Origin: Escherichia phage 4E8
Length of the DNA: 64,000 bases
Sequence record: OQ689734.1
Direction: 5' to 3' (one strand)
Program-made: the position numbers and the translations under genes
The notes under the pieces: model-generated
Databases searched by the model: none
What the model saw: only the letters and a program-made list of their open reading frames with translations
What the model was told of the DNA's origin: nothing
Part shown: positions 52,808 to 53,119 of the stretch, one piece after another
Position numbering within the stretch: position 1 is the stretch's first letter
Layout: each line of letters begins with the position of its first letter

Positions 52808-53119
52808 CTATTTAAGTTTAAGGCTGATATTAAGGTGCATACACGCCCTGTTCTGTACAGCGGCATAGCTTCTACCGAGCATGTCTGCCATTTTCTGAAT
52901 GGACATGAACCCAGCATTACGAATAACAAACTGATCTTCTTCTTCCGTCCACTTGACACGAAGAGTAGCTCTGGAAATTTTGAACTTGGTACAGGCTGTG
53001 TTAACAGCATTCTCTGTAACATTCATAATCAAAGCTATCTCAGGGATAGAATACTCTTTGATCAACCGTTTAAGATTCTCGATTTGCATCGGAGTCCATA
53101 TAGTTCTTCGTGCTTTCAT
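52808..53119 (-). CDS. Myb/SANT-like tandem-repeat DNA-binding protein
   Basis: two ~45-aa repeats each starting with W-T (WTPMQIENLKRLI... and WTEEEDQFVIRNA...MADMLGRSYAAVQNR). Confidence 0.55.
   Translation of the reverse strand: MKARRTIWTPMQIENLKRLIKEYSIPEIALIMNVTENAVNTACTKFKISRATLRVKWTEEEDQFVIRNAGFMSIQKMADMLGRSYAAVQNRACMHLNISLKLK

What the first reader, a model, noticed from the sequence alone, without database searches (positions are those of the whole stretch)
52808..53119. Myb/SANT-like double-repeat protein among early genes
The 103-aa protein has two ~45-aa repeats that each begin W-T and end in a helix-turn-helix-like segment (WTPMQIENLKRLIKEYSIPEIALIMNVTENAVNTAC and WTEEEDQFVIRNAGFMSIQKMADMLGRSYAAVQNRAC). 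The second repeat closely resembles a eukaryotic-type Myb/SANT repeat (WTEEED...G..W..IA..L.GR). Such proteins in phages are plausible transcription regulators or polymerase-binding factors.
Basis: partly seen in the sequence, partly recalled or inferred. Interest (0 to 1): 0.5.

Follow-up and report, generated by a model that had tools for sequence, protein, structure and literature searches.

The report
Small tandem Myb-like phage DNA-binding protein
This is a real 103-residue early protein of a phiEco32-like coliphage, built from two Myb/SANT-like helix-turn-helix repeats; databases already predict it to be a transcriptional regulator, so it is ordinary, though no one has tested it.

Summary
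The ORF (52808-53119, minus strand, 103 aa, GGAGG ribosome-binding site) is real. It is the ortholog of phiEco32 gp99 (phi32_99). The two-repeat observation holds: the halves align in register (p about 0.01 for the single sequence; profile-profile E = 2.4e-24). AlphaFold gives two three-helix bundles. A family profile hits c-Myb R2R3 best among solved structures (E = 1.7e-12, both repeats in register), then B-Myb, SNAPC4 and the GcrA DNA-binding domain. However, only the first Trp of each Myb repeat is kept, and Pfam's Myb model scores below its threshold. The protein belongs to a prokaryotic and phage branch of this fold (about 1,800 relatives, mostly multi-repeat). That branch includes PHROG 323, which contains the T5 D5 DNA-binding protein. 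RefSeq already names the orthologs "transcriptional regulator, D5-like". Repeat 2 is invariant at the protein level despite synonymous change; repeat 1 is replaced between phage lineages. The most likely function is a monomeric dsDNA-binding early regulator, but this is inferred, not shown. RNA-polymerase binding is unlikely. In passing: the 240 nt directly upstream form a strongly conserved, covarying structured-RNA candidate. It is shared with unrelated N4-like phages and is absent from Rfam.

The parts
52808..53119 (-). CDS of the 103-aa protein (stop codon 52808-52810); ortholog of phiEco32 gp99 / KBNP1711 gp100 / Salmonella phage 7-11 AEK82031
53124..53128 (-). Shine-Dalgarno GGAGG, 4 nt upstream of the ATG
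   Evidence: sequence read; conserved in KBNP1711 and (in front of the inserted gene 100) in phiEco32
52964..53107 (-). Repeat 1 (aa 5-52): W8-T9 then helices 10-22, 25-31, 36-45. This is the lineage-variable repeat
52811..52960 (-). Repeat 2 (aa 54-103): W57-T58-EEED then helices 59-68, 74-81, 85-102. Protein sequence nearly invariant across Gordonclarkvirinae; carries the MADMLGRS...AVQNRA motif that aligns with the Myb IAKxLPGRT...AIKN
52985..53014 (-). Predicted recognition helix of repeat 1 (aa 36-45, ENAVNTACTK)
   Evidence: role inferred by analogy with Myb and GcrA
52814..52867 (-). Predicted recognition helix of repeat 2 with its basic C-terminal extension (aa 85-102, YAAVQNRACMHLNISLKL)
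   Evidence: role inferred by analogy

Best explanation
The gene encodes a 12-kDa, basic (pI 9.9) protein made of two tandem tri-helical helix-turn-helix repeats of the Myb/SANT-like class. It belongs to the prokaryotic and phage branch of that class, which also includes the GcrA DNA-binding domain and the repeats of T5 protein D5.

It is expressed from the leftward early transcription unit of a phiEco32-like (Gordonclarkvirinae) phage. It most likely binds double-stranded DNA as a monomer. The third helix of each repeat would lie in successive major grooves of one asymmetric site of roughly 10-16 bp, as c-Myb R2R3 does. Through this binding it would modulate transcription (or a coupled replication step) during the early-to-middle transition.

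Repeat 2, which does not vary, would read a constant half-site or partner. Repeat 1, which is exchanged between phage lineages, would set lineage-specific specificity.

Shown here: the ORF, the repeat, the HTH fold, homology to Myb, GcrA and D5-type domains, conservation and synteny, and the mosaic evolution of the two repeats. Inferred, not shown: DNA binding, monomeric two-groove binding, the target site, and the effect on transcription.
For: - ORF and ribosome-binding site.
- Internal repeat.
- Two three-helix bundles, pLDDT 79.7.
- Best Foldseek PDB matches are tandem-Myb proteins CDC5L, Cef1 and Reb1, though not significant.
- Family profile against PDB: c-Myb 1.7e-12, B-Myb 2.9e-8, SNAPC4 3.6e-7, CRISPR-repeat-binding tandem HTH protein 2lvs 2.1e-8, GcrA DNA-binding domain 6.8e-5.
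- PHROG 323 'transcriptional regulator, D5-like', E = 1.1e-26.
- T5 D5 is in that PHROG (E = 1.2e-71) and aligns to the family profile (89.7 %, E = 1.8e-6). The T5 RefSeq note describes D5 as a DNA-binding protein required for replication and late transcription and involved in shut-off.
- pI 9.9.
- Orthologs at the syntenic position in about 87 phage records, including phiEco32 (60 % identity) and Salmonella phage 7-11 (36 %).
- Purifying selection on repeat 2 (11 synonymous against 5 non-synonymous codon differences) and replacement of repeat 1 (50 % nucleotide identity, 36 non-synonymous).
- An independent third-party annotation of a 71 %-identical metagenomic homolog names the R2R3-MYB WER-DNA complex.
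Against: - No binding site, operator-like repeat or over-represented motif could be tied to the protein. Repeat scans of the early region gave only RNA-like hairpins.
- The fold alone does not separate Myb from sigma region 4 or homeodomain.
- The Foldseek whole-model matches are not significant, because the two domains are flexibly linked (pTM 0.44).
- The Myb hallmark of three spaced tryptophans is not kept.
- The published phiEco32 and 7-11 transcription studies that I could read explain the temporal programme with gp36 and gp79 and do not invoke this protein.
- The D5 analogy rests on generic repeats. D5 is 255 aa with about four repeats.
Confidence: 0.5

Rival explanations
1. A T5-D5-like general or cooperative dsDNA-binding protein. 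It coats or organises DNA with little sequence specificity and is needed for replication and for the switch away from early transcription. It would not be a site-specific regulator.
For: - Membership in PHROG 323 together with T5 D5 and the profile alignment to D5.
- The D5 annotation note.
- A basic protein.
- No identifiable operator.
- 7-11 lacks the gp79 shut-off factor but keeps this gene.
Against: - Only two of D5's roughly four repeats are present, and D5's N-terminal part is absent.
- Lineage-specific replacement of repeat 1 alongside an invariant repeat 2 looks more like specificity switching than non-specific coating.
Confidence: 0.2
2. A host RNA-polymerase or sigma-directed factor. 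The sigma-region-4-like HTH mimics or competes with sigma70 region 4 (for example at the beta-flap) and so redirects host transcription without binding DNA itself.
For: - Pfam Sigma70_r4_2 is the only model above its gathering score (29.2 against 25.7 bits, aa 18-42).
- The phage family is known to reprogram RNAP through region 4 displacement by gp79.
Against: [quoted passage not shown]
- The Sigma70_r4_2 match is the generic HTH core shared by the whole HTH clan. Family members hit about 35 different HTH models.
- No region 2 or 3 and no known flap-binding determinants are present.
Confidence: 0.08
3. A free-standing DNA-binding module derived from a homing (HNH or GIY-YIG) endonuclease. It would persist as a remnant or as a protector of a homing site.
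For: - Weaker PHROG hits to HNH endonuclease families over both repeats (phrog_1891, 4.7e-4; phrog_8446; phrog_7545).
- Several GenBank records label the ortholog 'endonuclease'.
- BFVD matches include phage endonucleases carrying the same tandem module.
Against: - No nuclease domain is adjacent in any of the loci inspected.
- The gene keeps a fixed syntenic position from phiEco32-like phages to 7-11, with purifying selection. That is unlike a decaying remnant.
Confidence: 0.07
4. A nucleic-acid-binding protein whose target is the conserved structured element immediately upstream (53169-53407), either as RNA or as its DNA.
For: - The gene lies directly downstream of a 240-nt element that is 95-97 % conserved.
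- Both the element and repeat 2 are unusually constant.
- Myb-like repeats occur in RNA-protein machines, for example Cef1/CDC5L.
Against: The linkage is not obligatory.
- phiEco32 has another gene inserted between the two.
- In Salmonella phage PKM.Hi.22.6 they are about 2 kb apart.
- IME267 (Suseptimavirus) has an unrelated gene at that position, and ECBP2 has a 77-aa ORF there that I did not compare.
- N4-like phages carry the element, and no N4-like phage appeared in the organism tally or in the listed tblastn hits at E <= 1e-5.
Confidence: 0.05

Closest known systems
c-Myb / B-Myb R2R3 tandem repeats (Pfam PF00249; PDB 1H88, 1MSE, 1A5J)
   Same: - Two consecutive repeats of about 50 aa. 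Each is a three-helix bundle that starts with W-T-x-E-E-(D) and carries an (I/M)A..L.GR(S/T)..A(V/I).N motif before and within helix 3.
- Best solved-structure match by sequence, with both repeats in register.
   Different: - The second and third conserved tryptophans are replaced by aliphatic or small residues.
- The Pfam Myb model scores below its gathering threshold.
- The protein is viral or prokaryotic, 103 aa, with no activation or regulatory domains.
The PDB searches are independent of that.
Bacteriophage T5 protein D5 (T5.118) and PHROG 323 'transcriptional regulator, D5-like'
   Same: - Same PHROG.
- Same repeat type (WTPEQ.../FTPDE... followed by EIA..xGR...). The profile alignment has E = 1.8e-6.
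- Both are early phage proteins.
- D5 is annotated as a DNA-binding protein needed for replication and late transcription and involved in shut-off.
   Different: - D5 is 255 aa with about four repeats and an extra N-terminal region. This protein covers only about 100 of the 319 PHROG profile positions.
- No experimental data exist for the phiEco32 gp99 group.
GcrA N-terminal DNA-binding domain (Pfam PF07750; PDB 5YIU/5YIV)
   Same: - 8 of 53 family members hit PF07750.
   Different: - GcrA has one repeat plus a C-terminal sigma70-binding domain, and it recognises methylated GANTC (own knowledge).
- This protein has two repeats and no C-terminal domain.
Archaeal CRISPR-repeat-binding tandem HTH protein (PDB 2LVS) and Tc3 transposase bipartite DNA-binding domain (1U78)
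   Same: Small proteins or modules built of tandem tri-helical HTH units that bind one asymmetric DNA site with two recognition helices.
   Different: Different biological context. Similarity is limited to the HTH repeats.
Sigma70 region 4 (Pfam PF08281)
   Different: - No sigma regions 1-3.
- Two r4-like units in tandem.
- The match is the generic HTH core.

Membership tests
Myb/SANT domain (PF00249; R2R3-type tandem) | Repeat of about 50 aa forming three helices, with helix 2-turn-helix 3 | tested here: met
   AlphaFold2 model: helices 10-22/25-31/36-45 and 59-68/74-81/85-102, mean pLDDT 79.7
Myb/SANT domain (PF00249; R2R3-type tandem) | Three regularly spaced tryptophans (or aromatics) forming the core of each repeat | tested here: not met
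   Only W8 and W57 (the first position) are conserved. The second and third positions are I/M and A (alignments)
Myb/SANT domain (PF00249; R2R3-type tandem) | Score above the Pfam gathering threshold | tested here: not met
   21.7 bits against 24.4, matching only aa 54-66. 12 of 53 family members match at E <= 1e-3
Myb/SANT domain (PF00249; R2R3-type tandem) | Significant in-register similarity of both repeats to solved Myb R2R3 domains | tested here: met
   phmmer 1h88_C E = 4.3e-5; family profile E = 1.7e-12, positions 7-94 against c-Myb 60-153
Myb/SANT domain (PF00249; R2R3-type tandem) | Sequence-specific dsDNA binding through helix 3 of each repeat | not testable with these tools
   Needs EMSA, DAP-seq or a structure
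PHROG 323 / T5 D5-like transcriptional regulators | Significant match to the PHROG profile | tested here: met
   E = 1.1e-26, aa 2-97 on profile positions 91-190 of 319. T5 D5 itself scores 1.2e-71
PHROG 323 / T5 D5-like transcriptional regulators | Full D5 architecture (about 255 aa, about four repeats plus an N-terminal region) | tested here: not met
   Only two repeats. hhalign covers D5 136-236 only
PHROG 323 / T5 D5-like transcriptional regulators | dsDNA binding; requirement for replication, late transcription and early shut-off | not testable with these tools
   Known for T5 D5 only from the annotation note and own knowledge of the older literature
Sigma70 region 4 (PF08281) | Score above the Pfam gathering threshold | tested here: met
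   29.2 bits against 25.7, aa 18-42
Sigma70 region 4 (PF08281) | Part of a sigma factor with region 2 (core binding and -10 recognition) | tested here: not met
   The protein is 103 aa and consists only of the two HTH repeats
GcrA (PF07750) | N-terminal GcrA-type HTH | tested here: met
   [not shown]
GcrA (PF07750) | C-terminal sigma70-interacting domain | tested here: not met
   No sequence beyond the two repeats. No PF07750 hit for this protein itself

The most novel reading that the evidence does not exclude
The gp99-type two-repeat protein is a missing regulator of the phiEco32/7-11 developmental programme. One version: it is the factor that shuts off or antiterminates early transcription in 7-11-like phages. 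These lack gp79, and their authors state that an antitermination strategy 'remains to be defined' (PMC8948821). In this reading the invariant repeat 2 docks on a constant target, and the exchangeable repeat 1 gives lineage-specific DNA recognition. That would make it a natural 'swap-one-repeat' specificity system in a minimal Myb-like protein.
Probability: 0.1. Interest if true: 0.55.

Novelty: new member of a known kind. Interest (0 to 1): 0.28.

Why it matters
On its own the finding matters little. It confirms and sharpens an existing homology-based annotation: a predicted HTH transcriptional regulator in PHROG 323.

Two things give it modest value. First, it is one of the few early genes conserved from phiEco32-like phages to Salmonella phage 7-11. 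No DNA-binding regulator appears in the accounts of the transcription programme of this group that I could read; they rest on gp36 and gp79, and BASEL-II calls the molecular biology of the group poorly studied. That makes it a cheap and well-defined candidate to test. Second, the contrast between an invariant repeat 2 and a swapped repeat 1 offers a natural experiment on how tandem Myb-like repeats divide recognition between them.

The 240-nt covarying RNA candidate next to the gene is shared by two unrelated coliphage families and absent from Rfam. It is probably the more interesting object at this locus.

Tried and rejected
- **Rfam.** Nothing in 51000-56200 except tRNA-Arg.
- **Promoter and terminator scan.** No convincing sigma70 promoter for the gene. 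The only feature upstream is a terminator-like hairpin at 53178-53197.
- **gp36-type promoter.** The exact AATGTATA motif does not occur near the gene. The nearby AAATGTTTA is only a partial match, so I did not reclassify the gene as middle.
- **Candidate operator GTCTTACAT.** It occurs twice upstream and four times in the window against 0.66 expected. The upstream copy at 53220-53228 lies inside the RNA candidate. The other, at 53141-53149, lies in the spacer between its terminator and the ATG. I rejected it as evidence for a binding site.
- **Repeat scan of the early region.** It gave RNA-like hairpins, not operator arrays.
- **Papers.** The primary phiEco32 papers (PMC2587145, PMC3275717) are not held. 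Literature searches for a described RNA in these phages found nothing relevant. The svsR paper is unrelated.
- **E. coli genomes.** BLAST of the RNA candidate and of its invariant 20-mer found no copy and no long complementary target.
- **IME267 gene in the equivalent position.** It is unrelated to this protein.
- **Second AlphaFold run with a deeper alignment.** Not attempted. The diverse relatives came from the representative library, which the tool does not accept.

Full report
**What the window is.** Megablast of 51500-54500 against GenBank phages matches 108 records, almost all Escherichia phages of the phiEco32 group (Gordonclarkvirinae). tblastn with the 103-aa protein finds it in 87 phage records:
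- 98 % identity in KarlSchell_Bas89
- 97 % in EP335
- 88 % in KBNP1711
- 60 % in phiEco32
- 33-40 % in Salmonella phages 7-11, SE131 and PKM.Hi.22.6

The ortholog is phiEco32 gene 99 (phi32_99), KBNP1711 gp100 and 7-11 AEK82031. The GenBank note on AEK82031 already says 'similar to phi32_99'. The gene lies in the long leftward block of small genes that is the early class in phiEco32 and SU10 (genes 69-125; PMC4281155).

**The observation.** The ORF is exactly at 52808-53119 on the minus strand, with an ATG start and 103 aa. A GGAGG lies 4 nt before the ATG. Both quoted peptide strings are present. The two halves align in register over 46 residues. The score is 33, z = 3.2, p about 0.01 against 5000 shuffles. 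When a 53-member family alignment is cut in two, the halves match each other at hhalign probability 99.6 %, E = 2.4e-24.

**Fold.** AlphaFold2 on an 8-sequence alignment gives mean pLDDT 79.7. It shows two three-helix bundles (helices 10-22, 25-31, 36-45 and 59-68, 74-81, 85-102) joined by a low-confidence linker. The pTM of 0.44 reflects this flexible linker.
- Foldseek against PDB ranks tandem-Myb proteins (CDC5L, Cef1, Reb1) and other bipartite HTH proteins first. None is significant, because the inter-domain orientation is not fixed.

The fold alone cannot tell Myb from other tri-helical HTH domains.

**Sequence kinship.** Three Pfam results stand out:
- Sigma70_r4_2 is above its threshold (29.2 against 25.7 bits, aa 18-42).
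- Myb_DNA-binding is below its threshold (21.7 against 24.4 bits, only aa 54-66).
- Many generic HTH models score weakly.

Against PDB sequences, the single protein already puts c-Myb first (E = 4.3e-5). An exhaustive profile search of 1.84 billion representatives finds 1,799 relatives at E <= 1e-3. Most are 300-880-aa proteins with 4-9 units of about 49 aa, of consensus WT.EE...L......S..EIA..LGRS..AV..RA..LGL. A few ~100-aa two-repeat proteins are among them. These relatives hit Sigma70_r4_2, Myb, GcrA, IF2_N and many other HTH models. The one multi-repeat relative I traced (P0086) matches Clostridium and Bacillus phages.

A profile of 53 two-repeat segments hits the following:
- c-Myb R1R2R3 at E = 1.7e-12, positions 7-94 aligned to R2R3
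- B-Myb, SNAPC4 and Trichomonas Myb21
- a CRISPR-repeat-binding tandem HTH protein (2lvs, 2.1e-8)
- the GcrA DNA-binding domain (6.8e-5)

A 71 %-identical metagenomic homolog carries a third-party name referring to the R2R3-MYB WER-DNA complex.

Conclusion: this is a bona fide relative of Myb/SANT repeats. It belongs to the prokaryotic and phage branch, not a 'eukaryotic-type' Myb.

**Closest characterised relative.** PHROGs places the protein in phrog_323, 'transcriptional regulator, D5-like' (E = 1.1e-26). T5 protein D5 belongs to that PHROG (E = 1.2e-71). D5 aligns to the family profile at 89.7 % probability, E = 1.8e-6, and visibly contains the same repeats. The T5 RefSeq note calls D5 a DNA-binding protein required for DNA replication and late transcription and involved in shut-off. 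RefSeq already names the phiEco32, KBNP1711, NJ01, SU10 and other orthologs 'transcriptional regulator, D5-like'. BFVD shows many uncharacterised ~100-aa two-HTH phage proteins, and the same module inside phage endonucleases.

**Evolutionary pattern.** Across Gordonclarkvirinae, residues 63-103 are essentially invariant while residues 1-55 diverge. Codon-level comparison of the window with phiEco32:

| Half | Nucleotide identity | Synonymous codon differences | Non-synonymous codon differences |
|---|---|---|---|
| N-terminal | 50 % | 8 | 36 |
| C-terminal | 87 % | 11 | 5 |

Repeat 2 is under strong purifying selection. Repeat 1 has been replaced or has diverged to saturation between lineages; at least three allele types are visible.

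**Mechanism.** The protein is basic (pI 9.9) and consists only of two HTH repeats. By analogy with c-Myb R2R3, Tc3, Cbp1-type proteins and GcrA, the most economical reading is a monomer. It would place two recognition helices in adjacent major grooves of an asymmetric dsDNA site and act on transcription or replication early in infection. I could not identify a target. No operator-like array was found. The twice-occurring GTCTTACAT upstream does not count as evidence: one copy lies inside the RNA candidate described below and the other in the spacer just before the ATG. The RNA-polymerase-binding alternative is disfavoured, because RNAP from phiEco32-infected cells carried only gp36 and gp79 (PMC12276001). 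One open question is worth noting. 7-11 lacks gp79, and its authors say its strategy for transcription read-through remains undefined (PMC8948821). Yet it keeps this gene.

**Side finding.** The 294-nt gap directly upstream (53120-53413) is 95-97 % identical across phiEco32-like phages. That is far above the flanking genes. About 240 nt of it (53169-53407, minus strand) also occur elsewhere:
- at 72-80 % identity in N4-like Gamaleyavirus phages (Bas96, PhAPEC5/7, ST4, G7C), in a gene-poor tRNA region
- in Suseptimavirus and in a Salmonella phage

It is not found in 5,426 E. coli genomes. Evidence that it is structured:
- The MFE z-score is -3.95.
- Three hairpins show compensatory changes: 6 pairs changed on both sides, and 99 % of cells paired against at most 57 % for slid controls.
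- It ends in a terminator-like hairpin, preceded by an invariant 20-mer, TTGTTAGGTCTTACATGCAA.

There is no Rfam 15 match. It is not obligatorily linked to the Myb-like gene. phiEco32 has gene 100 inserted between them, and no N4-like phage appeared among the tblastn hits for the protein. Two further paralogous non-coding elements lie at 51347-51587 and 55507-55864.

**Verdict.** The domain call is supported with qualifications. The function is inferred only. The protein is an uncharacterised member of a known and already annotated class, so interest is low to moderate.

Noticed in passing
window 53169-53407, minus strand (intergenic gap 53120-53413): A structured non-coding RNA candidate of about 240 nt lies directly upstream of the gene.
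- It is 95-97 % identical across phiEco32-like phages, far above the flanking genes.
- It is also present in Suseptimavirus, in Salmonella phage PKM.Hi.22.6 and in unrelated N4-like Gamaleyavirus phages (72-80 %), where it sits in a tRNA region.
- Compensatory changes occur in three hairpins, and the MFE z-score is -3.95.
- It has an invariant 20-mer, TTGTTAGGTCTTACATGCAA, followed by a terminator-like hairpin (53178-53197).
- There is no Rfam 15 hit and no copy in E. coli genomes.

   Followed up: partly
window 51347-51587 and 55507-55864, minus strand: Two paralogous non-coding gaps in the early region. Each begins with the hairpin TATAGCCCTC-N11-GAGGGCTATGTGAG (34-nt repeat, 91 % identical). 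They share a box CTAGGGAGAG...CTCGAACATCCG. No Rfam match. These may be further phage RNAs or decayed tRNA-like genes.
   Followed up: partly
window 52127-52162 and 57720-57755: A 36-nt direct repeat (78 % identical) containing a hairpin GACGCT...AGCGTC. One copy lies in an intergenic gap of the early region; the context of the other was not inspected.
   Followed up: no
window 54415-54491, minus strand: tRNA-Arg (anticodon TCT), the only recognised RNA gene in the window. phiEco32 has a tRNA-Arg at the syntenic place.
   Followed up: yes
L002 (phiEco32) 2278-2499 compared with window 53117-53130: In phiEco32 an extra 73-aa gene (phi32_100) is inserted between the conserved RNA candidate and gene 99. 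It takes over the same ribosome-binding site and ATG context (TTAATTGGAGGGTGTATGA) that precedes the Myb-like gene in this window and in KBNP1711.
   Followed up: partly
window 14155(+), 23784(-), 26499(-), 30563(-), 35384(-): Exact AATGTATA motifs, the consensus of phiEco32 gp36-dependent middle and late promoters. There are 6 in the window against 2.7 expected. This fits a phiEco32-type transcription programme in this phage (consensus from PMC4281155 and PMC12276001).
   Followed up: no
window 52808-53119 versus L001 and L002: There is mosaic history inside one small gene. The first repeat is 50 % identical at the nucleotide level to phiEco32, and 76 % to KBNP1711 with mostly synonymous changes. 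The second repeat is 87-95 % identical. This implies recombination or replacement with a breakpoint near codon 55.
   Followed up: partly
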